A stretch of 32,000 nucleotides of DNA from Candidatus Saccharimonadota bacterium. Its GTDB lineage: Bacteria > Patescibacteriota > Gracilibacteria > BD1-5 > UBA6164. The position numbers were made by a program, and so were the translations under genes. The notes beneath the pieces are model-generated. The model was not told where the DNA came from, made no database searches, and saw only the letters and a list, made by a program, of their open reading frames with translations. The stretch lies in contig CP042461.1 of NCBI GenBank assembly GCA_004563595.2, positions 1,260,001 through 1,292,000 on the forward strand. Reading direction: 5' to 3'. Positions 9,762 to 31,214 of this stretch are shown here, piece after piece; the first letter of the stretch is position 1, and each line of letters opens with the position of its first letter.

Positions 9762-10124
9762 TTATGCCCCAACAAGGAGACCAAGAACCCATGTAACAAT
9801 AGAACCTGCGATAAAGATTACTACTAATCAAATAGCCGCTTGAGTAATAATTGTTCTTCATGTTTTTACTTTTTCTTCATCTCAACCAGCAGTTAAGATA
9901 TTGAAACCTCCCCAAAGGAGATATACAACTGCAAGAATAGCAAGAAAAGCCATAGCGTTTGCAATAATATTTTGTATTGTTACATCTGCTCCTTGACCAG
10001 TATCTCCTATCTTTTGATCTACTTTTCCTAAACCAAAATCTGGTGCTGCATTTACAGAATTTAATGCTAATAACCCTGCACCAGCTGAAGCATAAAATGT
10101 GTTTTTTACTATATTTTTCATCAT
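9762..10124 (-). CDS. VirB2/TrbC-like T4SS pilin family protein (single module)
   Basis: 120 aa. The signal peptide is MMKNIVKNTFYASAGAGLLALNSVNAAPD. The hairpin module is AFLAILAVVYLLWGGFNILTAGGDEEKVKTGRTIITQAAIGLVVIFIAGSIV (TM, G-DEEK-basic turn, TM). The track ORF stops at TGA 9882, but reading continues to TAA at 9762-9764. Confidence 0.7.
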
Positions 10125-12462: not shown

Positions 12463-14442
12463 TTAAGCTATGTCCTTTTTTACTCATTCTATTCACTGAT
12501 TTATTGATGCAATAAGCTCTGTTCCTTTTCCACTTACAGGTAATGACTGTACTAATTCACCTGAACTATTAAAAACTCATGCTTTTATTTCTCCTAAACG
12601 TTTATTTCTAGATCAGAATTTACTAAACAGACTTGTTTTTGTTTCTTCTCTATACATTATTACAGCATAGTCTCCTCCTTTGTTAGGGATGATACCTACT
12701 TGTTTTTTGTTTGAAGTTCCATTTTCTAAACTTGCAACTGCTACTTCTAGTACTTGAGTATTGTACCCTTGTTCAATATTATTTCTTTGTTCGTTTATAT
12801 ATGCAATTGCTTGTTCTTCTGATTCTATAACAGTATCTCCCATACCAATGGGAGAGTCAGAAATTCAGTCTGTCCATGTTGTATCATATGTAATAGCCAT
12901 TGATTCATCATCAAGTTCTAATGTAATAGTTTCTCAATTTACTCATATAAATGTTGTTAAATCTTTATCAGTAAAGGTTTTAACAAGAAATTCCTTTGTT
13001 GTTTTATACGCTTCAGCAGTTGTTTCAACCACATTATCATATACTTCTCCAGAAGCCTTCGTAAAATCATCAAATGCTTCTCAGGATGCATCAACAATAT
13101 TATCAAAAGTTGATGGTTCTTCAGCTGAACTATCATCAGCTATGAGAATGTCCATATCTATATTATTCATTGCTGCTTCAAATGCGTCCATTTCAGCAAT
13201 TGTTGACTTTCATGCTTTATTAATATCGCTTTCGAACTGAGTAGAAAGGTCCGCATATACCTCTTGATTCTTTATGTATTTCACTCATAAACCTTTTACT
13301 TGCCCCAGTCTCATTTGCTCCTTATCCTTCACTTCTGAATTAAAAGTTTCCATTGCAATTTTTGCTGTACTAACTTCTATTAAACTTGCCTTTCATACTC
13401 CAAGTAAAGGCTTCATTGTTGCTTCTAAATTAGCTTTTGATTCTATCGTTCAATAAAGAACATCTACATTTTTCATATTATTTCTATACTCTTTATTCAT
13501 AGAAATTACAGTTTGAAACCTATCAGCTTCTTGCTCCGCTTGAGATTTTTGCTCTGCTAATACTCTTGCATGTTCAGCTTCCGCTTGAGATTTTTGTTCT
13601 GCCAATACTCTTGCCTGTTCAGCTTCCGCTTGAGATTTTTGTTCTGCCAATACTCTTACCTGTTCAGCTGCTGCTTGGGATTTTTGCTCTGCTAATACTC
13701 TTACCTGTTCAGCTGCTGCTTGGGATTTTTGCTCTGCTAATACCCTTGCTTGCTCTGCTTCTCCTGTTTGTCTAACTTGATTTAATTTTGCTAAATTTTC
13801 TTCATCACCTTCAGCTTCTGATCTAACTTTTGTAAAATCAACTTTATTATTATTAGATAAATTATCATCAAATGATGTATAAAACTCTGATATATTTGTA
13901 TCTTGATTAAATTTTCAATCTGTCATACTGATATATCAATGTTCATCAGTGTTATCAGTTATATCTTTCATATAAGATTCTTTTCTATAAACCAGAATTT
14001 TATTTGATCAACTATTATGAACTAGAGAAAAAACTTTATTCTTATCGTCTTTTACTGTTGAAGCAATACTATTATAGTCGGGTAAATTTATACCAGCTGA
14101 CGCACTTAAAAGGTTTTTAATAGCATTAAATGTATCTTCTGAGTCTACTGTATATCAGTTTTCTAACATTGCTAACATTGATTCTTTTAAGCTTTCTTTT
14201 GTATCAGTATATATTCTCTCTTTATCTTCATTAAGCCTTTGAGATAACTCGTCAATATCTTCCTTATCTTTCCCATCAATTTTATTATCTGCTGAAATAT
14301 CAGCTAACAATTCACTCACTGACTTTTCTTCGGAAGCTTTTTGTTCAGTTTTTTCTTGAGTCTCTCCAGATAATCATTCAGGTGTACCAAGTAAACTCCC
14401 CCTTACAGTCATCATAAATAAATTCTTGTAGAAATGGAACAT
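12463..14442 (-). CDS. hypothetical acidic protein with a central coiled-coil-like tandem repeat
   Basis: One open frame of about 650-659 aa under code 25, with candidate starts at 14442 or at ATG ATG 14415. It contains five copies of RVLAEQKSQA(A/E)AE(Q/H)(V/A). The flanking regions are rich in D/E/N/S/T. The stop is TAA at 12463-12465. No family recognised. Confidence 0.7.
13538..13762 (-). repeat. 5 x 45-bp in-frame tandem repeat inside the CDS
   Basis: The units are 13538-13582, 13583-13627, 13628-13672, 13673-13717 and 13718-13762. They are near-identical and occur in two subtypes (..cagcttcc.. and ..cagctgct..). The last unit is degenerate. Confidence 0.9.
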
Positions 14443-15084: not shown

Positions 15085-16254
15085 TTAATTTCCTTCAAAT
15101 AAGTTTGATTGATCTTCTATAATATAATTTTTATCTTTTCCTTTATAATACCAGTCCCATTTCATGTAATCTTCTATATCATATTTACCAGCTCTGGCTA
15201 TATTATACGGATTTTTATGTATCGCAAAATGTAAATGATAATCAGCGTAATTTTTTTCAGGAACTCAAGAAACTCATACAGTTCAAACTGGTTCTCACTT
15301 CTTTACTAAAACTCCCTCCTCTATTCCTGTAAAAATATTACTTAAATGACTATAAAATATGACATCTCATCTCGTTGTTTTTAACCATACTTGATTTCAT
15401 CTTAATAGGTCTAAGTTTCTTAATTTTTCTTCTTTTGTAAGGGTTTCTGATTTTTTGATTTTTTGTAAATCCGAATAATCGAAATTTGAAACTACTCTCA
15501 TAACAATTGCATCATCTATCGCAACCACCTTTTCTCAAAAGGTATCTCATACATCCCAACCATGATGAACCCCATCTGTATAATCGCTTCTATATGACCT
15601 TAAAGCATTCGGTATTTTATTAGCATTTGTTGAAATTTTTTCTCATACTATTGGAACAATATACTTTTCCGTTCTTTTTTCTACTATATTATTTACAACA
15701 CTATAAGTATATATTAACTCTTTTAATGTTCTTTTCTTTTTCAGAAACGAGTAATGACTGATTCATAGGTCCTTTGAATAAGTCTTATATTGAGAAAATA
15801 TATTTATTTTGTTTTTCAATATAGAATGAAATGCTTGTAATTTTTCATCATTGAGGTCAAGTAATTTCTGATAAATACTTAATTCTGAATGTATATTTAA
15901 CGATGTCATAAATATAATTTCATTTTCTTCATCTCTAAATGAAATTTTATTATCTCTACAAGTATTATCCAGATACTGTAATTCAAATAAATAAAGATCG
16001 TCTTTCTTTTGAATAAATTTTGAAAAAATATTACATCTTGAGGTAATTTTCTTATTTTCTAAACTTTTTCCAGACTTAAAAATAAGTTTCGTTTTATATA
16101 AATTTCATGAATCAAGATAAATATTATTTGATGATTTAAAAGAAAGAGTAATTCATTTAAAAGCATACACACCAGAAAACACAAGTGAATAACCAAATAA
16201 TACACTAAATAATAATACTGATATCAAAGAAATAATTATTGGTTTTTTATTCAT
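15085..16254 (-). CDS. M23 family (LytM-type) metallopeptidase with N-terminal membrane anchor
   Basis: 389 aa. The N-terminal TM segment is MNKKPIIISLISVLLFSVLFGYSLVF. The catalytic motifs are DGVHHGWDV (HxxxD) and YHLHFAIH (HxH). Confidence 0.85.
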
Positions 16255-21486: not shown

Positions 21487-21927
21487 ATGAAAAGTAGTAG
21501 ACTTATTTTTCTTCTTATCAGTCTAATAATAACAAGTTGTGCTATTCTGACAACTGATGAGAAAAAATACTCTATACAGTATGAATGTGGGGAAGATAAA
21601 AAATTTACAAATTATTTTCAATCTGTTCCTTCAGAAATACTAAAACAACGATCCATGGTTGAATCAGCAAAATTGCATAAGTTCGAACATCAAACATGTA
21701 ATCAGATAGCATCGTCGTTATGACAATCGTCTCTCTGTAACATAAATAAAAACCGTAGTAAATTTACTACGGTTTTTTGAAATCCTATTTTTCTTCTCAA
21801 CTCTTCTCACTCTTCATCACTGGAAACAAGACAACATCTCTCAAATTTTCTTGTTCTGTCAATAATGATACTATTCTATCTATTCACATTCCCCAACCTG
21901 ATTGACATGGCATACCATATTCCATAG
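21487..21927 (+). CDS. putative lipoprotein; 3' end ambiguous
   Basis: It has a lipoprotein-type signal, MKSSRLIFLLISLIITSC. The 78-aa body has no TGA and ends at TGA 21721-21723. Under code 25 the frame runs through the terminator hairpin, and antisense into lysS, to TAG at 21925-21927. Confidence 0.5.
21748..21778. terminator. bidirectional intrinsic terminator
   Basis: ccgtagtaaa (21753-21762) pairs with tttactacgg (21763-21772), flanked by A- and T-runs. It lies 7 nt beyond the lysS stop. Confidence 0.8.
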
Positions 21928-23368
21928 CAAGTACAAAGTCTTCATCTCACGCTGTTGCTTCTTCGTCTCACATTGCAATTGCTCATGACTGTTCATCAAA
22001 TTTTTCTTGTTGTACTTTTGGGTCTACAAGTTCTGAATAAGCCTTTAGAACTTCCCATCCATTAAGTAATAGTTGGAATTGTTCTACTATATTTTCATTT
22101 TCATCACTTGCTCTTGCAAGAGGTTGCATTGTCTTTGGATAGTTATAGACAAATGCTGGTCATATAATAGAAGGTCTGAGTACCTTTTTATATAAATAAT
22201 CAATCATTGTTGCTGTTGCTTGTTTATCAATTCATTCCCAAGCATATCCTGCAGCTTTTATATCTGCTCTTAATTTTTCATCATCACCTGATTCATACTT
22301 ATCTATATCTATCCCTGATTTTTCTTTTACTCAAGCTATATAATCAACTTTTTCCCACGGAGTAGTGAAATCTACGGTTTGTACTTCTCCATCTTTATCT
22401 TTGATTTTTATTTCTCTATCAAGATTCATTTCATCAAATATAAAATCAAACATATCTTCTGTAAATTTCATATTATCATTGAAATTCCAATATGCAGCAT
22501 AATGCTCTACAGCAGTGAATTCTTGCATATGAGAAGGATCAGATCATTCATTCCTGAAATTTTTCCCTATTTCAAATACTCTTTCAAATCTTCCAACAGT
22601 TGCTTTCTTTAATGCTGTTTCTGGAGCAATTCTTAAGAAAAAATCTTCATCAAAATCATTATGATGAGTCACAAATGGTAGTGCTGCTGCTCAAGATGCT
22701 GAACTTCCTAAAACAGGAGTTTCAATTTCCATGAAATCATTTTTCCAATAAAATTCTCTTATTTTTTTAAGAAAATCACTTCTGAATTTAAATCTATCAA
22801 AAGATTCTTCATTCATAATAAGATCTAAGTATCTTTGCCTATAAATAGTTTCTCTATCTTGAATCCCATGAAATTTTTCAGGCAGAGGTCTTACTGCTTT
22901 TGAAAGAATTTGAAACTCATTTACAAAAAGAGTTAATTCTCCATGTTTTGTAAGAAATAAATCTCATGTGAGACCTATATAATCTCAAACCTGACAAAAT
23001 TTTTCAGCTATCTTAAACGCTGTTTTTTCTTCTCATGCAATCTCTATTTTTTCAACTCACTCTCTCCCTGTATTAAAAATAACCTTACCTCTCATAAAAG
23101 ATATTTGAATATCTCCTGTATGATCTCTAATTTTTCCGAATACCAGCTTTCCCATTCCTCTACTTGAAATAATTCTCCCTGCAGTTTTAAACTCTCAAAT
23201 TGATCAGTTCTCCATTAAGTCAGCAACATCTTTTATCTTTGCTTCACCTTTTCTAATATCTGAGATATCTTGTTTCCCATGAAAACTATTTGCATAACAA
23301 ATCACTCATGCATTTTTTAAGTTTTGTATCTTCTCTTGTCTATCTCTTGCTTCTTTTGAATAATCCAC
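21785..23368 (-). CDS. lysS: lysine--tRNA ligase (class II)
   Basis: 527 aa with a GTG start: (M)[28 protein letters not shown]...[44 protein letters not shown]...[26 protein letters not shown]...[23 protein letters not shown] stop at 21785-21787. Confidence 0.93.
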
Positions 23369-23544
23369 TCTATTTGTGTTAAAATTTTAAAATTATAGCT
23401 TTAAACTACCTATTTTTTCTAAAAATTCAAGATAAATATGAATTTTATTTACCTATCTATAAAAAGTAGATTGTGTCAACTTCTTTATTTGTTTCAGATC
23501 TATTTTTATGATAAAATTAAAGAGATTACATTTAATGTATACAA

Positions 23545-26352
23545 ATGAAAAAACTACTATTTATAATACTCTGATTCTTTATCTCAACTCAAAGCGCCTT
23601 TTGAGCTTTATACCCAGTTGATAAAAAACTGAATGCTGCAACAAAAAAACCTACTCCACAAACGGAAGAGTCTTTTTTTAGTTGAAGTATTGAAATGATG
23701 CAAAATATTTTGTATTATGCAATATTATGAGTATTACTAGTCATCTGACTTATACTCACTATCAAATTTATCCGTTTTTTATTTGAGATATATTATGCAA
23801 AAAATCTAAGGTATCTCAAAGTAACTCTCCCCAGAGCAGATTCTAAGCTTGATAAAGAAAAAGAAACAAAAAAAGATTTCAAAGAAAAAATTGGAATGAT
23901 GAGTATGTTTTATAAAGCAATACATAAGCTCAGTGAAGCCTGATTACGTGATACATTTTTAAACTTCCTTTTTAGACATTCAAAAATTAGTTTAGAACTT
24001 GTGTATAAAGATGGTGAAGTAACTTTTTATATTGTGACGTATAAAAATTACGTAAATCTTGTTACTCAACATTTAACATCAGTATATACAGATGCTGAGG
24101 TTCTTGTTGTTGACCCAAAAGATGATTATATCAAAATAAAACCAAAAGGATATTCTATGAGAGCAGCCTCTCTTTGAAAAGAACATGATGATGTGTATCC
24201 TATCAAAACATATAAATACTTAGAAGATGATCCTATAAACAATTTCACAAATGTATTTGGAGGCTTAAAAAAAGAAGATAAAGCTGTATTTCAACTCGTT
24301 ATTAAACCAGATTTTAAATGGAATAAAAAAGCATTAAATGCTTCAAGGCTGGTAGCAAAAGGACAGTATGGGAAAAAAAGAAAAAACCCACTGAGTTTTC
24401 TTGGATTTTTATACAACCCAATTATTGCAGTAATTCAATGACCAGATAGTATGATAGCTGGAGGTAATAATGCTCCTGGAGCGAGTGAAGGAGATGCATA
24501 TAAAATATTTAATCAAGCTGAAACAGAAGCCCAAAAAATCATGTGAGAAGCTGCTGCTCAGCCTGCTTTTAAAAGCTCAATTAGAGTGTTAGTAAGTAGT
24601 AAAGATCATAGAAGTTCTGAAAATGGGGTTCATGCTATTGTTGCTGCTGCATCAATTTTTACTGATGAGTATAACAACTCTCTTGATAATCCTCAAGTAA
24701 TGGAAGATGCTTTTCCATTTATATTTACTCCAATGAGATACTTTGGTTTTAAATTTAAACTCGTTGGTTTTTTTCAAAATGTATCGTATTTTTCTGCTGA
24801 TGAAATATCAACTCTCTATCACCTCCCAGATATAACCTATAATAGATCTCCAATTATTAATTGGTTGGAATATAAAAAACTCCCTACTCCTCATAATTTA
24901 AAAACCCCTCAAGAACCCACTATGCTCCAAGAAAAGGTAAAAGTAGGAGAAAAGGATGGGAAAGCAATTTATGAAACCAAAGATGTCCACAGACACCTTT
25001 GAGGATTCCCTGTCTATAAAGACTGAGTTGTACTTGGGTGGAATGAATATAGAAACAAGAAAACTCCTATATATTTCAATAGAAAAGATAGATGAAGACA
25101 TCATTATATCATCTGAAAATCATGAGGATGAAAGTCAGTTTTTATTGGATACCTTGCAAGACAAGATCTCCGGAATGGAGATGGTATCTGTGTGGTAGAT
25201 CCACATGGGGATTTAGTTGAAGATGTCCTTGCATTTACACCAAAAGAAAGAGCAAAAGATGTAATAGTCTTTGATCCAGCTGATACTGAAAGACCAATGG
25301 GACTCAATATGTTAGAAGTTATTAGTAAAGATCCTGAAATCAGAAAAAGAGAAATGGATAGAGCTGCTATGGACGCTACTGAAATATTTATCAAAATCTT
25401 TGGGGATGAAATCTTTGGTCCAAGAATCCAGCATTACTTCCGTAATGGGTGTCTCACTCTGATGGAAGATGAAGAAGATGGTGGAACTATCATAGATGTA
25501 CCGAGGCTTTTTGTAGATGAGGCATTTATGAAATATAAGACTTCAAAAATAAAAAATCCCGTAGTAAAATCATTCTGGGAGCATGAATATGCAAATACAG
25601 GAGATAGGGAAAAACAAGAAATGATACCGTATTTTTCTTCTAAATTCTGACCATTTATTACTAATACAACGATAAGAAATATTATCGGACAGCCAAAATC
25701 TGCTTTTAACATTAGAGAGATTATGGATAACAGAAAGGTTCTTCTTGTAAATCTATCAAAAGGGAAAATCTGATCTCTCAATGCACAATTACTGGGGCTC
25801 ATATTTGTATCCAAAATAAATATGGCTGCTATGTCGAGAGCTGATATGCCTGAGGAGGAAAGGAAAGATTTTTATATGTATGTTGATGAGTTTCAAAATT
25901 TTGCTACAGAAACCTTTTGAGAAATTCTATCAGAAGCCAGAAAATATCACCTCGCACTTATAATGGCTCACCAATTTATTGCACAAATATGATGAAATGG
26001 TTCTCCAAAATGAGATAAACCGAGTATCAAAGATGCGGTATTTGGGAATGCTGGTACTATTATGAGTTTCAAGGTTTGAGCCGATGATGCTGAGTATATG
26101 GAAAAAGAATATGCTCCTCTGCTCTCTCAACAAGATATTATCTGAATTGCGAACTTTACAGCATATTGTAAACTTAATATTGATAACGCAACAACCAGAC
26201 CATTTGATTTAAAAACAATATGGGATAATACCTATAAGAATAGAAAAATTGCTGAAATAATTAAAGAATATTCGAGAAAAAAATATTGAAGAAAGAAAAA
26301 GTATGTAGATATGGAAATCGAAGCAAGATTATGAATTATGCCTGATGAATAA
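23545..26352 (+). CDS. type IV secretion coupling protein-like ATPase (VirD4/TraG/TraD family)
   Basis: 935 aa in a single frame joining track ORFs 24193, 24586 and 25192. It has two N-terminal hydrophobic segments. The Walker A motif is HHYIIGKSGGGKS (25108-25137), with three Gly encoded by TGA. It also has VVDPHGDL, a Walker B-like FYMYVDEFQNF, LIMAHQ, and GNAGTIMSF as in TraG-D C-terminal regions. Confidence 0.8.
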
Positions 26353-26385
26353 AACATCAAACTTTTAAAAACTTAATATATTTTC

Positions 26386-27354
26386 ATGAAAGTATTAATA
26401 AAAATTGTATTACTTGTTATGATAGCCTTGAATGCCCTCATTCTTACTAATACGTTTGCAGCTGTTGATGATAATTTAAATACAGGGAATCAGCAACCAA
26501 CAAATACTATTATAAATACTCATTTAGAAAAGGTAAAAGGAGCTGATAGTTCTATTTGAGTATGAGCGATAGGGTGAGAAAAATGAATTTACAACTCCAT
26601 GATTAGGATTGCAAGGGATCTCAAAAATGTCTTTTTCTTTATTGCCTGACTCTATCTTGTTTTTCTTGTATTAAGGCTCCTATTTGCTGAAAATACAGAA
26701 GAAGAAGCGGGGAATTTCAAGAAATGAATTATCTGGACCAGTCTCTGACTTGTTATTATGCAGCTCTCCTACTCTGTTATAAAAGTTCTCTTTGATAAAG
26801 ATATTTCAGAGCGACTTGCTGTCGACTTCATAGATGCAATAATTAATCCTCTTATTCAGCTTGTAGAAACATGAGCAAGTTTTATGTTTATCTGAATTGC
26901 AATATATTCATTTTATGCAATTGTCACAGCAAATGGAGATGAAGAAAAAATAAAAACTTGAAAGATGTCAGTTTTGTATGGAATTATCTGATTTATTATT
27001 ATTAAATTCTCTACAACCATAGTTGATTCTGTATATTGAAAAATCAACTGTCCTACTGTAAGTATAAAGAGTATTTTTGATACTTCTCTATGAAATAAAT
27101 GTATAGAGAAAACAAATCTGAGCTGATTGACAGGTATCATTGTAGATATAATAAACTGGATGAATTCTCTTGTATGAATTGCAGTAATAATAATGATAAT
27201 ATATGCTTGAGTTCAAGTACTATTCTCTGCAGGAGATGAAGAAAAACTAAAAAATGCTAAAAGATCAATATTCTATATTGCTCTATGATTATTCATACTT
27301 GTAATGAATTATATGATTTTAACATTCTTTATTATACCAAATAGCACTATTTAA
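26386..27354 (+). CDS. secreted/membrane protein made of three pilin-like TM-hairpin modules
   Basis: 322 aa. The signal peptide is MKVLIKIVLLVMIALNALILTNTFAA. The modules are ...LRLLFAENTEEEAGNFKKGIIWTSLGLVIM, ...FYAIVTANGDEEKIKTGKMSVLYGIIGFIII and ...IYAGVQVLFSAGDEEKLKNAKRSIFYIALGLFILV. Confidence 0.65.
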
Positions 27355-27369
27355 CAATAAATAATAGAC

Positions 27370-28284
27370 ATGAAAACTTTTATAAAAATTCTCCTCACAT
27401 GAACTCTCTTCTTTTGAGCGTTTGGTCTGTTATGAGATACTTATGCAGCAATAAGTGGTTTTGAAGATAGCGCCTGAGCCATAAAGGCTGTGTCTATCAA
27501 TCCACCTGAATGATGATCTACTGTGGAAACAATAGAAAAATTATGATTGAGCATACTTACTACTACTAAAGTAATATTAGCATGAGTTATCGTTATTTTT
27601 ATGGTATATATAGGAGTACAGATGATTCTCTCTCTTTGAACTGATGAAGAAGAGTTGAGTAAATCAAAACGACAAATCATGTATAGTACTATTTGACTGA
27701 TTTTTATCAATATTCCTGGGACACTTTATAATGCAATAAATAATGATACAGCAAGTACTATATGATGAAGGGTATGAGTGAGTTCATTTATAAAAAAACC
27801 TTGAAATAGTGATTCAAATGTTTTCATTGATATATTTGATTTTTGAAATACTATCAATGGTGATATTATTTGATTTTTAGAAGTCTTTATCTCAGCTGCA
27901 GCAATATGAATGATATTATATGCTGGAGTCAAGATGCTCCTCTCATGAGGAAAAGATGAGCAAATTACAGAAGCAAAAAGTAAAATTGTTTGGTCTCTTG
28001 TCTCACTTGTTTTCGTTTGATTTATAGAAAGCTGGAAAACATTTGCGTTTAGTTGAAATATTGATGATGGGATCGATATATTTGAGACAGCTTCTAATCT
28101 TGCACTTTTTATTGCAGGACCAGTTGCCCTCTTCTTCTTAACTCTTGCTTGATATTACTATATAACTTCAAACTGAGATGAAGAAAGAGTAAAAAAAGCA
28201 AAAAATATTGTTATAAATACACTGATTGCAACGGTTATAATCCTTGCAAGTTATACCTTCTTACTCGATTTATCTAATTTATAA
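27370..28284 (+). CDS. secreted/membrane protein made of three pilin-like TM-hairpin modules
   Basis: 304 aa. The signal peptide is MKTFIKILLTGTLFFGAFGLLGDTYA. The modules are ...VYIGVQMILSLGTDEEELSKSKRQIMYSTIGLIFI, ...LYAGVKMLLSGGKDEQITEAKSKIVWSLVSLVFVG and ...AGYYYITSNGDEERVKKAKNIVINTLIATVIIL. Confidence 0.65.
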
Positions 28285-28302
28285 AATTCTTTAAAAAAAA
28301 TT

Positions 28303-28719
28303 ATGAAAAAAATATTTATACAAATACTTTTGATTCTCTCAATGTTTTCTTTTTGAGTATTATCTAGTTATGCAGAAGAATGAATTCAAGTAACGGTCAC
28401 TGAAAGAATTCCTGGAGCGGGATGTGATAAATGAACAACTGATGATAATTGAAACATTTTATATAAATGTACTGTAAAACCATGATTCTGATCTGTTGTA
28501 GAAATGATGTGAAATATGATTAAATATTTTACATTCATAGCTGGGCTTGCTGGTGTCTTATTCATTGTAATAAATGGTATCATGTATTCTATGGGTGGGG
28601 CAGATCCAAGTATGAAAGATGAAGCAAAGAAAAGAATTACTGGGACATTGGTATGACTCGTTGTTCTCTTTATGAGTTGAGTGATATTAAATATCATTGC
28701 TCCTTGGATCTATAAATAA
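28303..28719 (+). CDS. VirB2/TrbC-like T4SS pilin family protein (single module)
   Basis: 138 aa. The signal peptide is MKKIFIQILLILSMFSFGVLSSYA, followed by a Cys pair (PGAGC...YKC). The module is IKYFTFIAGLAGVLFIVINGIMYSMGGADPSMKDEAKKRITGTLVGLVVLFMSGVILNIIAPW. Confidence 0.75.
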
Positions 28720-28721
28720 AA

Positions 28722-28762
28722 AAATACTCTTACTATAATATATAGTAAGAGTATTTTTTTTT
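28722..28762 (+). terminator. intrinsic terminator of the pilin operon
   Basis: A 16-bp perfect stem, aaatactcttactata (28722-28737) / tatagtaagagtattt (28741-28756), followed by a T-run. Confidence 0.8.
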
Positions 28763-28772
28763 AATTGTTTTT

Positions 28773-28847
28773 TGGTTGCGGGGATTGGAATTGAACCAAT
28801 GGTCTTCGGGTTATGAGCCCGACGAGATACCACTTCTCCACCCCGCG
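28773..28847 (-). tRNA. initiator tRNA-fMet (CAU)
   Basis: CGCGGGGTGGAGAAGTGGTATCTCGTCGGGCTCATAACCCGAAGACCATTGGTTCAATTCCAATCCCCGCAACCA. It has the C1/A72 mismatch and three G:C pairs (GGG/CCC) closing the anticodon loop CTCATAA. It is near-identical in its key elements to the E. coli initiator. Confidence 0.92.
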
Positions 28848-28868: not shown

Positions 28869-28943
28869 TGGTACGGCCACGGAGAATCGAACTCCGGTTG
28901 CCTGGATGAAAACCAGGTGTCCTAACCCCTAGACGATGGCCGC
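28869..28943 (-). tRNA. tRNA-Glu (UUC)
   Basis: GCGGCCATCGTCTAGGGGTTAGGACACCTGGTTTTCATCCAGGCAACCGGAGTTCGATTCTCCGTGGCCGTACCA. The anticodon stem is CCTGG/CCAGG and the loop is TTTTCAT, which places TTC at positions 34-36. It has a Glu-type D-arm and an encoded CCA. Confidence 0.88.
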
Positions 28944-29105: not shown

Positions 29106-31214
29106 TTATTTCTCACTCATAACCCAAATTCCATCCCAATTTTCTTCAGGAGAAACTTTCATGTAAGTTTCACATCTATTTTTATAAGTAATACTTGGCT
29201 TATCTCAAAGCTTTTCACACTTTTCAAAGAAAGAAAGAGCTTGTTTAAAGTCTTTCTTTAAATACAATGTAATTCACTTGGTATATTCTTTAATGACTGT
29301 CTTTTTTTCATCTGAAAGTTTTTCTTTTTCTGACAGAAGTTCATATATTACTACCGGTTTATTTTTTCATTTAACCTTTATTTTATCAAGATATCTAAAA
29401 TAAAAGTTATCTTTATTCTCTAGAAATACAGCTTCACTGACACAAATATAAGTTCCATAATACTTATTTACCCCTTCCAAACGAGAAGCTAGGTTTACAC
29501 TATCTCAAAGTGCGGTAAACTCCATTTTTCTTCCTATTGCTCAGATATTTCAAATAATTGCTTCTCAACTATGAATTCAAATCCTTGCTTTGATTTCAGA
29601 AAAACCTTCTTTATTCCATTTTTTATTTAATTTTCATAATAACTCTTGTTGTAGTAATGCTGACTTACATGCATTATACGAATCCTGTGGTCATGCATCT
29701 CAAAATGCACCCCAAAGTGCCATAATTGCATCTCCCTCATATTTATTTACAAATCATTTTTCATCTAATATCACATTCGACATTCCTCATAAATACTCCC
29801 TGAGAAAAGCTACCAGTTTTTCTGCTGTAAATTTTTCTGATATACTTGTAAATCATTCTATATCTGAGAAAAATATTGCTATACATTTCTTTTCTCCATT
29901 TAAGTTGATCTTTCAAGCTCATGAAAGTATTTCAGATGCAATATCAGTGGAAACATATTCTCATAAAGCTTTATTTAGCTTCATCTTATGTTTGTTTTCA
30001 ATAAGGTATTTTGCTATATTTGAAAATATCAGAGAAAATATAAGGGAAAATATAAGCTCTATTGGAAAGTTAATAATTAAATTTGTAGTATGAATGACAA
30101 TAAAAGGAAATATTATTATAAAAAGAGAAAAAACTGCAATATTACTCAAAATAAGTATATATCATGAGCGACTTAAATTAAAATATACTGAAACAATAAT
30201 AAGTAAAAATATCAAAACCCATTCTAGTTTTGTATCAAAATATCTTAAATAATTTTTATTCAATATGGTATTAATCATATTCACATGAGTATAAACTCAA
30301 TAATCAATACCATTAGGAGTGTAAAATACATCTTTTATTCAAGTAGCTGTTGCTCAAATCAAAATAATTTTATCTTTAAAATCAATATGGTTTTTAAGTT
30401 CTTCAAATTTTTTTGAGTCATATACATCTATAAATGACACTGTTTTTTTCTCTTTTTGAAAATCAGAATATTTTATATAATTTATAAGGATTTCCTTTTC
30501 TCAACTTCTTGCAAGTGGTATCTTTTTATTAGGTATGAGGTGATAAAAATTATCATCAACAAATGACTCTTTTGTAATAAAGTCTCTTTTATAAAATAAT
30601 GAATAATATGTTTTTAATACTGCGAGACTAAAGTGGTCAAAATATTCTCATTTTTTTGTTTTGGTAAAAGGTGTAATTCAGTATACCACATGATTTACAT
30701 CATCAATATCGGGACTATAGTAACCCGTCGCTTTAATAACATCCGAAAAAATAGATTTTTGAAAGATTCAGTTTTTCGAAAAATATGATCATATCAATAT
30801 ATTTCATGCCTGTTGTATAGATGCTCTAAACGCGGTATCTGATTCCTTTTTAAGAGACTCTTCTGCAAAAATAATATCAAACGCTATCAGAGTAGCTCAC
30901 GCATCATTTAAATGCTCTATAACAGGAATATAGGCCTTTCTATCAAAAGGGAACCTTCAAAGCTTTATATTACTATTATTTCCTTGTTCTAATGTCTTAT
31001 CATCAATCTCGACTATTAAAATATTATCGTTTATTTTTGATTGTTTGGCTTTATTTTTGATTGTATAATATGTATTTTGAATTTTTTTATCTAAAATATA
31101 AAATACTCAGGTTGAGCTCAAGATCACAACAAGTATCAGTATTATCAAGGATAATCATACTGATAAGATATTTTTTCATTCTAATGAAAAAATGTTTTTT
31201 ATATTAAAATGCAT
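29106..31214 (-). CDS. CHASE2 sensor domain-containing class III adenylate/guanylate cyclase
   Basis: 702 aa under code 25: MHFNIKNIFSLEGKNILSVGLSLIILILVVIL.... It has a periplasmic CHASE2-like region (ILIVEIDDKTLEQ...GRFPFDRKAYIPVIEHLNDAGATLIAFDIIF) and three TM segments. The cyclase core is IAIFFSDIEGFTSISE...YEGDAIMALWGA...IGIHSGEAIIGNIGA...FTALGDSVNLASRLEG. TAA stop at 29106-29108. Confidence 0.85.

What the first reader, a model, noticed from the sequence alone, without database searches (positions are those of the whole stretch)
23545..28719. Minimal T4SS-like operon: VirD4-like coupling ATPase followed only by pilin-module proteins
Four co-directional, tightly spaced genes (gaps of 33, 15 and 18 nt) end at a strong terminator. 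The first is a 935-aa two-TM P-loop ATPase with TraG/TraD-like motifs. The other three are signal-peptide proteins whose only recognisable content is VirB2/TrbC-type TM-hairpin modules. No VirB4, VirB6, VirB8-10, relaxase or lytic transglycosylase is visible in this 32-kb window. A coupling-protein-like ATPase wired directly to seven pilin modules is not a canonical T4SS layout. In an episymbiotic CPR lineage it could be a surface filament or DNA/protein uptake device.
Basis: partly seen in the sequence, partly recalled or inferred. Interest (0 to 1): 0.8.

Follow-up and report, generated by a model that had tools for sequence, protein, structure and literature searches.

The report
Coupling ATPase plus fused-pilin operon
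A tiny symbiotic bacterium (Gracilibacteria, which reads TGA as glycine) keeps a secretion-motor ATPase in one operon with three proteins built from seven pilin-like units; this is most likely an unusually arranged piece of the known but functionally unexplained type IV secretion system of these bacteria, not a stand-alone new machine.

Summary
With TGA read as Gly (code 25), four co-directional genes lie at 23545-28719, with gaps of 33, 15 and 18 nt and a -20.9 kcal/mol terminator. Gene 1 is a VirD4/TrwB-type coupling ATPase (T4CP). Genes 2-4 are signal-peptide proteins with 3+3+1 PF18895 "T4SS_pilin" hairpin modules. The cassette is conserved in about 24 independent Gracilibacteria loci with different flanking genes. 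Of 13 testable loci selected through the pilin, 12 have the T4CP directly upstream.

The "minimal T4SS" reading is only partly supported. Chromosomal, relaxase-less T4SSs with VirB2-like pilin arrays and a T4CP far from virB4 are already published for Patescibacteria. In the sister Gracilibacteria lineage the apparently orthologous T4CP sits in a T4CP-SpoIIE-VirB4 operon, so the genes here are most likely one part of a dispersed T4SS. I could not test whether VirB4 is elsewhere in this genome.

New elements:
- The T4CP-pilin operon itself, found only in code-25 lineages.
- Tandem-fused triple pilins, all unannotated in public records.
- The T4CP's 420-aa DUF8128 domain, whose predicted fold matches only the VirB4 N-terminal domain.

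Verdict: new variant of a known kind, of moderate interest.

The parts
23369..23544 (+). 176-nt AT-rich intergenic region between the divergent lysS gene (minus strand) and the ATPase gene; presumed promoter region
   Evidence: Sequence read. Sigma-70-like hexamers are present at 23356-23385, but the promoter scan is not enriched over shuffles (36 found against 32.5 expected). This is inference only.
23545..26352 (+). 935-aa membrane-anchored VirD4/TrwB-type coupling ATPase (T4CP) of the DUF8128 + T4SS-DNA_transf architecture; 25 in-frame TGA (Gly) codons
   Evidence: ORF under code 25. PF02534 at 1.2e-13, above the gathering score. Homologues carry precomputed PF26449 (DUF8128) + PF02534. The family profile hits TrwB (1e-7) and DotL (4e-5) in the PDB and nothing else.
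23545..23799 (+). N-terminal membrane anchor (aa 1-85): two hydrophobic helices, 4-23 and 51-84
   Evidence: Hydropathy scan. The AF2 model shows helices 2-31 and 44-85.
23800..25059 (+). DUF8128 domain (aa 86-505), with a predicted VirB4-N-terminal-domain-like fold
   Evidence: AF2 of this domain alone: pLDDT 75, pTM 0.73. In the Foldseek PDB search the top 14 hits are all TrwK/VirB4 entries (E 3.8e-5 to 1.2e-2) and all later hits are unrelated with E > 0.05. There is no sequence-profile similarity to Gracilibacteria VirB4.
25060..26349 (+). P-loop ATPase domain (aa 506-935) with a helical insertion at about 597-714; Walker A at nt 25114-25137, Walker B at nt 25879-25902
   Evidence: Motif positions. 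The Pfam match covers aa 507-855. Foldseek matches TrwB at TM 0.60-0.65 over about 427 columns, and also Cag-beta and HerA.
26386..27354 (+). 322-aa secreted/membrane protein: signal peptide plus three tandem VirB2-like TM-hairpin modules (nt 26587-26805, 26833-27039, 27118-27339), with a conserved Cys pair in the linker between modules 2 and 3
   Evidence: PF18895 at 8.5e-18 with 3 stretches. Module alignment. Orthologue alignment. Coordinates.
27370..28284 (+). 304-aa secreted/membrane protein: signal peptide plus three tandem VirB2-like modules (nt 27532-27744, 27841-28044, 28072-28269)
   Evidence: PF18895 at 5.3e-23 with 3 stretches. NCBIfam NF045849 (Mbov_0395 pilin-like conjugal transfer protein) scores 50.3 bits against a cut-off of 40. 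The 337 homologues are all named 'hypothetical protein'.
28303..28719 (+). 138-aa single-module pilin: signal peptide, Cys-containing extracellular head, one hairpin (nt 28486-28710)
   Evidence: PF18895 at 3.3e-9, above the cut-off; TrbC/VirB2 PF04956 at 4.2e-4, below its cut-off. Orthologue alignment.
28718..28760 (.). Intrinsic terminator ending the operon: 20-bp perfect stem, 3-nt loop, A-run upstream and T9 downstream, so it could act in both directions; it faces the convergent tRNA-Met and tRNA-Glu genes
   Evidence: Scan. dG -20.9 kcal/mol. tRNAs at 28773-28847(-) and 28869-28943(-).
9762..10124 (-). Unlinked 120-aa single-module pilin of the same family, 13.4 kb upstream
   Evidence: PF18895 at 5.8e-9, above the cut-off. 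It aligns with the cassette modules and has a GGDEEKVKTGR loop.

Best explanation
The four genes are one transcription unit. It encodes two parts of the Patescibacteria-type chromosomal type IV secretion system of a code-25 Gracilibacterium: the coupling-type ATPase and the pilin set. The rest of the machine, VirB4 above all, is most likely encoded elsewhere in the genome.

Shown: the gene structures, the family memberships, the operon architecture and its conservation.

Inferred mechanism:
1. The three pilin proteins are exported by Sec and their signal peptides are removed.
2. Each module inserts as a helical hairpin, with both ends outside and the short GDEEKxKxxK loop in the cytoplasm. This is the topology of VirB2/TraA pilins.
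3. The modules are extracted from the membrane and polymerised into a surface filament or conduit. In the two triple proteins, three protomers are delivered as one pre-linked unit.
4. The ATPase is a membrane-anchored hexameric motor. It docks on the VirB4-containing platform, possibly through its VirB4-NTD-like DUF8128 domain.
5. The motor feeds or pulls a macromolecular substrate (protein, DNA or another host-derived polymer) through the conduit at the contact with the host cell.

The direction of transport and the substrate are unknown.
For: Operon and gene calls. T4CP identity. Pilin identity and topology.

Conservation. The cassette follows the T4CP in L001-L005 and L022, where the flanking genes differ: lysS/mutL, tgt-rhodanese/mutL, dnaE/CHASE2 cyclase. 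In a sample selected through the pilin, 12 of 13 testable loci have the T4CP directly upstream. A distant code-25 lineage (L047, T4CP about 40% identical) has a triple pilin directly upstream of its T4CP, which is a second, independent arrangement.

Link to VirB4. In the sister clade the gene order is T4CP-SpoIIE-VirB4 with gaps of 12-24 nt, in L006, L007, L009, L084, L086, L087 and L106. The two T4CP clades are sisters. Their divergence (66%) matches that of TypA between the same genomes (67.5%), against 79% and 85% within the pilin-linked clade. This argues for orthologues rather than old paralogues.

Chromosomal and vertical. The flanks are housekeeping genes and no relaxase or integrase appears in any locus.

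Literature. VirB4 is present in 2,417 of 3,035 Patescibacteria genomes, the T4CP is rarely near virB4, and the parts are dispersed in Gracilibacteria (PMC12102498). The pilin array and T4SS are essential in S. epibionticum (PMC10633639; PMC12857230).
Against: VirB4 was not seen within 10 kb of the cassette in any of about 24 loci. I could not search the rest of this genome, so VirB4's presence there is inferred, not shown.

Orthology of the pilin-linked and VirB4-linked T4CPs rests on a divergence calibration and a tree, not on complete genomes. Some code-25 and code-11 loci do carry two T4CP paralogues (L024, L049, L064, L065).

In classical systems the T4CP is dispensable for pilus production, so an operon link between T4CP and pilins is not predicted by the canonical model.

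In S. epibionticum the T4CP homologue was reported as non-essential while the other T4SS genes are essential (PMC12102498). That leaves room for a separate role.

No structure prediction of the pilins was run here. Their VirB2-like fold rests on Pfam/NCBIfam profile matches and topology. By sequence they match no solved pilin, and the TrbC/VirB2 Pfam hit is below its cut-off.
Confidence: 0.62

Rival explanations
1. Stand-alone minimal machine. The DUF8128-T4CP combines a VirB4-like N-domain with a VirD4-like motor. It alone extracts and polymerises the fused pilins and moves substrate, independently of VirB4. The result would be a two-component ATPase-plus-pilin filament or uptake device.
For: The four-gene unit is tightly conserved and no other T4SS gene lies within 10 kb in about 24 loci. 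The N-domain fold matches only the VirB4 N-terminal domain, and whole-protein Foldseek top hits are VirB4. VirB4 is the ATPase classically tied to pilin extraction (my own knowledge of the field). The S. epibionticum T4CP is dispensable although the T4SS is essential, which hints at a separable function. VirB6 is undetectable in Gracilibacteria.
Against: The sister-clade orthologue is operonic with a bona fide VirB4. VirB4 is near-universal in Patescibacteria. The same DUF8128-T4CP occurs throughout Patescibacteria with no pilin next to it: 70 code-11 loci. One cassette (L092) has no T4CP upstream. TM-scores for the VirB4-NTD match are modest (0.33-0.39), and profile-profile comparison finds no sequence similarity.
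Confidence: 0.15
2. The multi-hairpin proteins are not pilus subunits. They are polytopic membrane components: a translocon or platform that replaces the undetectable VirB6/VirB3 of Gracilibacteria. They would form the membrane channel on which the T4CP sits, and only the single-module proteins, if any, would build a filament.
For: After signal-peptide removal, two of the three proteins have six TM helices, like VirB6-type polytopic proteins. VirB6 homologues are reported absent in Gracilibacteria (PMC12102498). Fused triple pilins are not known in any characterised pilus. T4CPs classically dock on membrane channel components rather than on pilins (my own knowledge).
Against: Every module individually matches the pilin profile PF18895 above threshold, and all seven are mutually homologous (hhalign probability up to 98%). 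There is no match to VirB6/TrbL or PrgI/VirB3 profiles. The extracellular linkers with conserved Cys pairs would be compatible with neighbouring protomers on a filament surface, but that is inference.
Confidence: 0.12
3. Remnant of a conjugative element (ICE or plasmid) integrated in the chromosome, with the T4CP and pilins left over from a DNA-transfer apparatus.
For: T4CP and VirB2-like pilins are hallmark conjugation genes. Pilin 2 passes the NCBIfam cut-off for a Mycoplasma ICE pilin-like family (NF045849). The Patescibacterial VirB4 clade nests within the monoderm conjugation class MPF-FATA.
Against: No relaxase, integrase, repeats or composition shift: GC is 0.28-0.35 across the window, like the flanks. 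The flanks are housekeeping genes. The cassette is inherited vertically, since the T4CP tree and identities track TypA. It is conserved in hundreds of related genomes: 462 T4CP and 337 pilin-2 homologue clusters.
Confidence: 0.03

Closest known systems
Patescibacteria-type T4SS (Southlakia epibionticum ML1 cluster SEML1_0006-0019, Wang et al. 2023; survey by Quinonero-Coronel et al. 2025)
   Same: Chromosomal, no relaxase, monoderm-type system with VirB2-like (PF18895/PF04956) pilins in multi-copy sets. The T4CP homologue is usually encoded away from virB4. The function is unknown, and the system is essential in the one species tested.
   Different: Here the T4CP is operonic with the pilins, whereas the Se cluster lacks a recognisable coupling protein. 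The pilin copies are fused into two triple-module polypeptides plus one single, rather than lying in an array of separate genes. No VirB4, VirB3, VirB6 or hydrolase lies nearby. The organism is a code-25 Gracilibacterium, a class in which the published survey found the parts dispersed and VirB6 undetectable.
TrwB / VirD4 / TraG-TraD coupling proteins of conjugative plasmids (PF02534; PDB 1E9R, 1GKI)
   Same: N-terminal two-helix membrane anchor, a P-loop NBD with Walker A and B motifs, a helical insertion, a Pfam match above threshold, and a TM-score of about 0.6 to TrwB over about 427 residues.
   Different: A 420-aa DUF8128 domain is inserted between the anchor and the NBD. There is no relaxase or other known substrate partner. 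Scores against all curated T4CP equivalogs are far below their cut-offs (for example 37 bits against 250).
TrwK / VirB4 of plasmid R388 (PDB 7O42, 7O43, 8RTD)
   Same: Overall two-domain layout of an N-terminal domain plus a C-terminal RecA-like ATPase. The isolated DUF8128 model retrieves only VirB4 structures.
   Different: VirB4 sequence profiles do not match. The C-domain is VirD4-like by sequence. This protein has its own TM anchor, whereas VirB4 relies on VirB3. A separate, genuine VirB4 exists in related Gracilibacteria.
Mycoplasma ICE 'Mbov_0395 family pilin-like conjugal transfer protein' (NCBIfam NF045849)
   Same: The hairpin module is homologous. Pilin 2 scores 50.3 bits against a cut-off of 40, and the other modules score 25-36 bits.
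   Different: Those proteins are about 80-aa, single-module and encoded on mobile ICEs. Here the modules are chromosomal, multi-copy and fused.
VirB2 paralogue arrays of Bartonella and Anaplasma T4SSs
   Same: Several divergent VirB2-type pilins are encoded side by side in a host-associated bacterium.
   Different: Those are separate genes inside complete diderm VirB/D4 loci and are thought to serve antigenic or host-range variation. Here the modules are fused, and each position is conserved across species (41-57% identity), which argues for fixed structural roles rather than variation.
Archaeal Ced/Ted DNA-import systems (VirB4-like ATPase plus VirB2-like pilins)
   Same: A small gene set that pairs a T4SS-family ATPase with VirB2-like pilins and is used for import rather than conjugation. 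This makes it a functional precedent for the uptake idea.
   Different: There is no sequence membership: NCBIfam CedD scores 20.4 bits against a cut-off of 600, over the Walker A region only. The Ced ATPase is VirB4/HerA-like, not VirD4-like.

Membership tests
T4CP (VirD4/TraG/TrwB, Pfam PF02534) | Profile match above the curated threshold over the nucleotide-binding domain | tested here: met
   PF02534 at 51.2 bits against a cut-off of 20.1, covering aa 507-855. The family profile hits only TrwB (1e-7) and DotL (4e-5) among PDB sequences.
T4CP (VirD4/TraG/TrwB, Pfam PF02534) | N-terminal transmembrane anchor with a cytoplasmic ATPase domain | tested here: met
   Hydrophobic helices at 4-23 and 51-84. 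AF2 helices at 2-31 and 44-85.
T4CP (VirD4/TraG/TrwB, Pfam PF02534) | TrwB-like fold including an all-alpha insertion in the NBD | tested here: met
   Foldseek against TrwB: E about 1e-11, target TM-score 0.60-0.65 over about 427 of 426-437 residues. The model has a helical block at 597-714 between NBD strands. This rests on a predicted model of a 93%-identical proxy.
T4CP (VirD4/TraG/TrwB, Pfam PF02534) | Membership of a characterised subfamily (NCBIfam TraD, TraG-Ti, CD1115 and similar) | tested here: not met
   The best hit is NF045973 at 37 bits against a cut-off of 250. All hits are short Walker A region matches.
T4CP (VirD4/TraG/TrwB, Pfam PF02534) | Genomic partnership with a relaxase or another known substrate-processing protein | tested here: not met
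   No relaxase-like gene was found in the window or in the 10-kb flanks of related loci, judged from the Pfam lists. A dedicated relaxase profile scan was not run.
VirB4 (PF03135 / PF12846 / PF19044; TIGR00929) | VirB4 sequence profiles match the ATPase | tested here: not met
   There is only TIGR00929 at 18.6 bits against a cut-off of 643, and no Pfam VirB4 family. A genuine Gracilibacteria VirB4 scores PF19044 at 3.5e-25.
VirB4 (PF03135 / PF12846 / PF19044; TIGR00929) | VirB4-type N-terminal domain | tested here: inconclusive
   By structure, the isolated DUF8128 model hits only VirB4 entries (E 3.8e-5, probability 1.0, TM 0.33-0.39). By sequence profile there is no similarity (hhalign probability 0.2%).
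PF18895 T4SS_pilin (VirB2-like pilins of monoderms/CPR) | Profile match above the curated threshold | tested here: met
   64.6, 81.3 and 37.1 bits against a cut-off of 26.6, with 3, 3 and 1 stretches.
PF18895 T4SS_pilin (VirB2-like pilins of monoderms/CPR) | Signal peptide followed by a two-helix hairpin with a short charged loop | tested here: met
   The likely cleavage sites read TFAA/V, TYAA/I and SYAE/E. The loops follow the GDEEKxKxxK pattern.
PF18895 T4SS_pilin (VirB2-like pilins of monoderms/CPR) | Small single-hairpin protein (about 100-140 aa) | tested here: not met
   Two of the three proteins are 322 and 304 aa with three hairpins each. This is conserved in all orthologues.
TrbC/VirB2 (PF04956) and solved conjugative pilins | Sequence match to the classical VirB2/TrbC family or to a solved pilin | tested here: not met
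   PF04956 at 20.9 and 17.4 bits, below the cut-off of 27.9, though aligned over the same hairpin. There is no PDB sequence hit (best E 0.09, to PsbZ).
TrbC/VirB2 (PF04956) and solved conjugative pilins | Polymerises into an extracellular pilus | not testable with these tools
   This needs microscopy or biochemistry.
Complete T4SS (defined by VirB4) | VirB4 encoded in the same locus | tested here: not met
   No VirB4 was found in the 32-kb window or within 10 kb of the cassette in about 24 loci, using my own VirB4 HMM.
Complete T4SS (defined by VirB4) | VirB4 encoded elsewhere in the same genome | not testable with these tools
Indirect evidence: VirB4 is abundant in Gracilibacteria (7,971 hits) and adjacent to the T4CP in the sister clade.
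Patescibacteria-type T4SS (PMC12102498, PMC10633639) | Chromosomal, relaxase-less, with VirB2-like pilins in multiple copies and the T4CP away from virB4 | tested here: met
   compared.
Archaeal Ced DNA-import system | CedB/CedD-type ATPase profile match | tested here: not met
   NF053655 CedD at 20.4 bits against a cut-off of 600.

The most novel reading that the evidence does not exclude
The DUF8128-T4CP is a VirB4/VirD4 hybrid motor that works without VirB4. Its VirB4-like N-domain would pull concatenated, pre-linked triple pilins out of the membrane and assemble them into a filament. Its VirD4-like ring would move host-derived DNA or protein through that filament. This would be a two-component, T4SS-derived uptake or attachment organelle specific to code-25 Gracilibacteria.
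Probability: 0.12. Interest if true: 0.85.

Novelty: new variant of a known kind. Interest (0 to 1): 0.5.

Why it matters
The T4SS of Patescibacteria is essential in the one species where it has been tested. It is unique among monoderm systems in carrying pilins, and its function is unknown. Protein export, DNA uptake and nutrient uptake have all been suggested. Whether the widespread T4CP homologue belongs to that machine is an open point, because it is encoded far from virB4 and is dispensable in S. epibionticum.

Gene-neighbourhood evidence from Gracilibacteria bears on this directly. The same T4CP is operonic with the pilins in one lineage and with VirB4 in its sister lineage. That ties all three together and argues that the T4CP is a working part of the system.

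Two structural oddities give concrete, testable handles on how a monoderm could build and use a VirB2-type filament:
- Pilin modules fused three to a polypeptide, with each position conserved across species.
- A VirB4-N-domain-like fold (DUF8128) inside a coupling protein that occurs across the whole phylum.

If the stand-alone reading were true, this would be the smallest known T4SS-derived machine.

Tried and rejected
1. Table-11 ORF calling fails on this window. All proteins had to be translated under code 25 in my own scripts. Tools that accept only 'window' proteins rejected those translations, so the 93%-identical database homologue P0001, translated with TGA=Trp, was used as a proxy for structure prediction.

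2. Finding VirB4 in the window's own lineage did not succeed.
   - The VirB4 search returned only sister-lineage proteins of 74% identity or more.
   - No contig length is shared between the VirB4 and T4CP hit lists.
   - Clustering the 120 VirB4 hits and looking up an outlier again gave the T4CP-SpoIIE-VirB4 context.
   - The pilin-profile searches did not land on any contig known to carry VirB4.
   - The paper's supplementary tables are truncated before the relevant genomes.

3. Sequence homology between DUF8128 and the VirB4 N-domain was not detected by hhalign. The VirB4 profile had low diversity (Neff 1.8), so this negative is weak.

4. Pilin modules against PDB sequences gave nothing meaningful.

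5. T4CP-pilin linkage outside code-25 lineages was not found in 70 loci. My HMM's possible insensitivity was checked by running the small multi-TM neighbours through Pfam; they were MscL, GtrA, RDD, DUF1622 and similar.

6. A simple whole-gene duplication as the origin of the two triple pilins is rejected. Module-to-module scores show no positional one-to-one pairing.

7. FtsK/HerA classification is rejected. DUF87/HerA hits cover only the Walker A region, and HerA ranks below TrwB in the fold search.

8. A mobile-element origin is rejected (see the rival explanations).

9. The promoter scan was not informative, because it was not enriched over shuffles.

Full report
**Observation**

The tools' table-11 ORF list shows only fragments in 23.5-28.7 kb. 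Treating TGA as a sense codon raises the window's ORFs of at least 100 aa from 13 (2,080 aa) to 45 (12,750 aa). It also restores full-length RF1, Obg, SSB, TypA, LeuRS, ThiI, SmpB, DnaE and LysRS.

TGA means Gly. Of the 25 in-frame TGA codons in the ATPase gene, eight fall on conserved columns where 26-35 of 35 distant homologues have Gly. These include all three Walker A glycines. Public databases translated these genes with TGA=Trp, so listed identities are underestimates.

The operon ends in a perfect 20-bp hairpin followed by T9 (dG -20.9 kcal/mol) that faces two convergent tRNA genes.

The window is 100% identical over 14.6 kb to JGI metagenome 3300030037, contig Ga0239576_1000025 (493 kb).

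**The ATPase**

It is 935 aa long, with two N-terminal hydrophobic helices, Walker A at 524-531 and Walker B at 779-786.

- It passes the Pfam threshold for PF02534 (VirD4/TraG), with weaker DUF87 and TrwB_AAD_bind hits.
- It is far below every curated NCBIfam T4CP or VirB4 equivalog.
- A profile of 40 family members hits only TrwB and DotL among all PDB sequences.
- An AF2 model of the 93%-identical proxy P0001 is confident (pLDDT 83.8, pTM 0.75). Its C-terminal half superposes on TrwB at a TM-score of 0.60-0.65, ahead of Cag-beta and HerA.

The protein is therefore a coupling-protein-type ATPase, not FtsK or HerA.

Between the anchor and the ATPase lies a 420-aa region that databases label PF26449/DUF8128. 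No searchable paper mentions it. Modelled on its own (pLDDT 75, pTM 0.73), it retrieves only TrwK/VirB4 structures from the PDB. The top 14 hits run from E 3.8e-5 to 1.2e-2, and everything after them is unrelated. The query has no P-loop domain, and other RecA-type ATPases are not hit. The match must therefore be to the VirB4 N-terminal domain. TM-scores are modest (0.33-0.39), and profile-profile comparison with Gracilibacteria VirB4 finds nothing. I rate this as a likely but unproven fold relationship.

The DUF8128 + T4CP architecture is phylum-wide. There are 16,285 clusters at 50% identity with E below 1e-3. Loci were recovered from Peribacteria, Uhr-, Magasanik-, Woese-, Berkel-, Falkow- and Staskawiczbacteria and others.

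**The pilins**

The three downstream proteins each start with a signal peptide. They contain 3, 3 and 1 copies of a roughly 70-aa module made of TM helix, GDEEKxKxxK loop and TM helix.

- All three pass the Pfam threshold for PF18895 T4SS_pilin.
- Pilin 2 also passes the NCBIfam cut-off for the Mycoplasma ICE 'Mbov_0395 pilin-like conjugal transfer protein' family.
- Classical TrbC/VirB2 (PF04956) matches the same hairpin but below threshold.
- No solved pilin is detectable by sequence.
- The modules are mutually homologous (hhalign probability up to 98%) without one-to-one positional pairing between the two triple proteins, so the fusions are old.
- Orthologues from seven species align end to end at 41-57% identity. 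Hairpins, loops and Cys pairs in the extracytoplasmic linkers are conserved, which indicates fixed structural roles.
- All 337 detected homologues of pilin 2 are about 300 aa and named 'hypothetical protein' (one is mis-named NADH dehydrogenase subunit 6), so these fused pilins are unannotated in public records.

Two further single-module pilins lie nearby, at 9762-10124(-) and just beyond the right edge of the window.

**Conservation of the operon**

Every close relative fetched through the T4CP has the same 3+3+1 cassette directly downstream, although the flanking genes differ. One basal member (L008) has a glycosyltransferase there instead.

In an independent set fetched through pilin 2, 12 of 13 loci with readable upstream sequence have the T4CP directly upstream. 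One (L092) does not.

A distant code-25 lineage (L047) places a triple pilin directly upstream of its T4CP.

In 70 standard-code Patescibacteria loci the T4CP has no pilin neighbour. I checked that this was not an artefact of my HMM.

**Link to VirB4**

Three relatives fetched through the T4CP (L006, L007, L009) have a different downstream pair: a SpoIIE-type phosphatase and a 640-680-aa protein that is a clear VirB4 (PF19044 3.5e-25, AAA_10 1.2e-10, 'VVDEAW' Walker B). That VirB4 has thousands of Gracilibacteria homologues.

All four further contexts I looked up, including a 1.1-Mb contig, show ComM(-)/T4CP/SpoIIE/VirB4 with gaps of 12-24 nt.

In a T4CP tree the pilin-linked and VirB4-linked proteins are sister clades. 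Identity is 72-90% within each clade and 62-69% between them.

Calibration with TypA, which is present in the window, in L003 and in L087, gives these values:

| Comparison | TypA identity | T4CP identity |
|---|---|---|
| Within the pilin-linked clade | 85% | 79% |
| Between the two clades | 67.5% | 66% |

This is what orthologues would show. The simplest reading is one T4CP gene that sits with the pilins in one lineage and with VirB4 in the other. That links all three functionally. It is not proven, because no complete genome could be inspected and tandem T4CP paralogues exist in some other lineages.

**What is already known**

- Wang et al. 2023 found an essential T4SS cluster in S. epibionticum. 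It has essential predicted pilins but no recognisable coupling protein or relaxase.
- Quinonero-Coronel et al. 2025 surveyed 3,035 genomes. VirB4 is present in 2,417. There are 5,713 T4CP homologues, of which only 148 are near virB4. VirB2-like arrays of 2-11 genes occur in 383 assemblies, and relaxases are almost absent. In Gracilibacteria TrsD and VirB3 are unlinked from virB4 and VirB6 is undetectable. The authors left open that the T4CP may have been exapted.
- Reviews call the function 'completely unknown' and mention effector delivery or nucleotide uptake.

I did not find three things described: the T4CP-pilin operon, pilin modules fused within one polypeptide, and any account of DUF8128. 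My own scan agrees with the published rarity of T4CP-virB4 linkage (3 of 83 loci).

**Mechanism**

I commit to the dispersed-T4SS explanation at a confidence of about 0.6.

1. The pilins are Sec-exported and inserted as hairpins with the charged loop inside. This is the VirB2/TraA topology.
2. They are polymerised into a surface filament or conduit, with the triple proteins entering as pre-linked protomers.
3. The T4CP hexamer docks on the VirB4 platform, perhaps through its VirB4-like N-domain.
4. The T4CP drives a macromolecule through the conduit at the contact with the host.

Gene structure, family membership, operon structure and conservation are shown. Topology follows from hydropathy and charge. 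Polymerisation, docking, substrate and direction of transport are inferred.

The rivals are a VirB4-independent two-component machine (0.15), polytopic channel or platform proteins replacing VirB6 (0.12), and a mobile-element remnant (0.03).

**Limits**

- VirB4 in this genome was not tested.
- The pilins were not modelled in 3-D.
- The AF2 models used a proxy carrying Trp at Gly positions.
- Gene calls in the fetched loci come from a simple longest-ORF method.

Noticed in passing
window 1-32000 (all genes): The genome uses TGA as a Gly codon (code 25). Housekeeping genes contain 1-45 in-frame TGAs. Public protein databases hold these genes translated with TGA=Trp (for example P0001 and P0410), so Trp replaces conserved Gly residues, including those of the Walker A motif, and identities are underestimated by 3-7%.
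   Followed up: yes
window 9762-10124 (-); L107 15610-16044 (-), about 1 kb beyond the right edge of the window: Two more single-module PF18895-type pilin genes lie outside the cassette. This gives nine pilin modules within about 24 kb. The one beyond the window has an acidic C-terminal tail and lies next to KH-domain, S16 and L28 genes. An orthologue occupies the same position in L003, L097 and L098.
   Followed up: partly
L006, L007, L009, L084, L086, L087, L106 (for example L084 5765-11926): In a sister Gracilibacteria lineage there is a conserved operon T4CP(DUF8128) - membrane-bound SpoIIE/PP2C phosphatase - VirB4, downstream of a divergent ComM/Mg-chelatase-like gene. A phosphatase wedged between the two T4SS ATPases suggests that the machine is regulated by phosphorylation.
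   Followed up: partly
window 23800-25059 (aa 86-505 of the ATPase): DUF8128, a phylum-wide uncharacterised domain, has a predicted fold that matches only the VirB4 N-terminal domain. This would make the Patescibacterial 'T4CP' a VirB4/VirD4 mosaic. No searchable paper mentions the domain.
   Followed up: partly
window 12463-14442 (-), repeat at 13535-13761: A 659-aa protein with no Pfam match carries five tandem 15-aa (45-nt) repeats of the form AEQ(A/V)RVLAEQKSQA(A/E), at 91% identity at the DNA level. It may be a coiled-coil surface or structural protein.
   Followed up: no
window 27370-28284; NCBIfam NF045849: Pilin 2 passes the curated cut-off of a Mycoplasma ICE 'pilin-like conjugal transfer protein' family. 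VirB2-like pilins are therefore not wholly absent from monoderm (MPF-FATA, Tenericutes) conjugation systems. This bears on the published question of where Patescibacteria acquired their pilins.
   Followed up: no
L022 15140-16301 (-): In one relative the 3+3+1 cassette is followed immediately by three further single-module pilin genes on the opposite strand, so pilin copy number varies between species.
   Followed up: no
L024 17-1501 and 9662-12790; L049, L064, L065, L081: Several Patescibacteria loci carry two DUF8128-type T4CP paralogues in tandem or within a few kb. This is consistent with the published average of about two T4CP homologues per genome.
   Followed up: no
window 21487-21927 (+): A 146-aa ORF under code 25 (78 aa to the first TGA) has a lipoprotein-like signal sequence (LIITSC). 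It overlaps the 3' end of lysS (21785-23368, minus strand) by 143 nt. It is also called as a gene in the JGI record, and its true end is unclear.
   Followed up: no
window 29106-31214 (-): A CHASE2-sensor adenylate/guanylate cyclase (702 aa) converges on the operon. It holds the same position in L003 but not in L001 or L002, where mutL is there, so it is probably not functionally linked.
   Followed up: partly
window 15085-16254 (-): A secreted M23 peptidase lies 7 kb upstream, next to smpB. M23 domains occur in some Patescibacterial VirB1-like hydrolases according to the literature, but nothing here ties this gene to the cassette.
   Followed up: no
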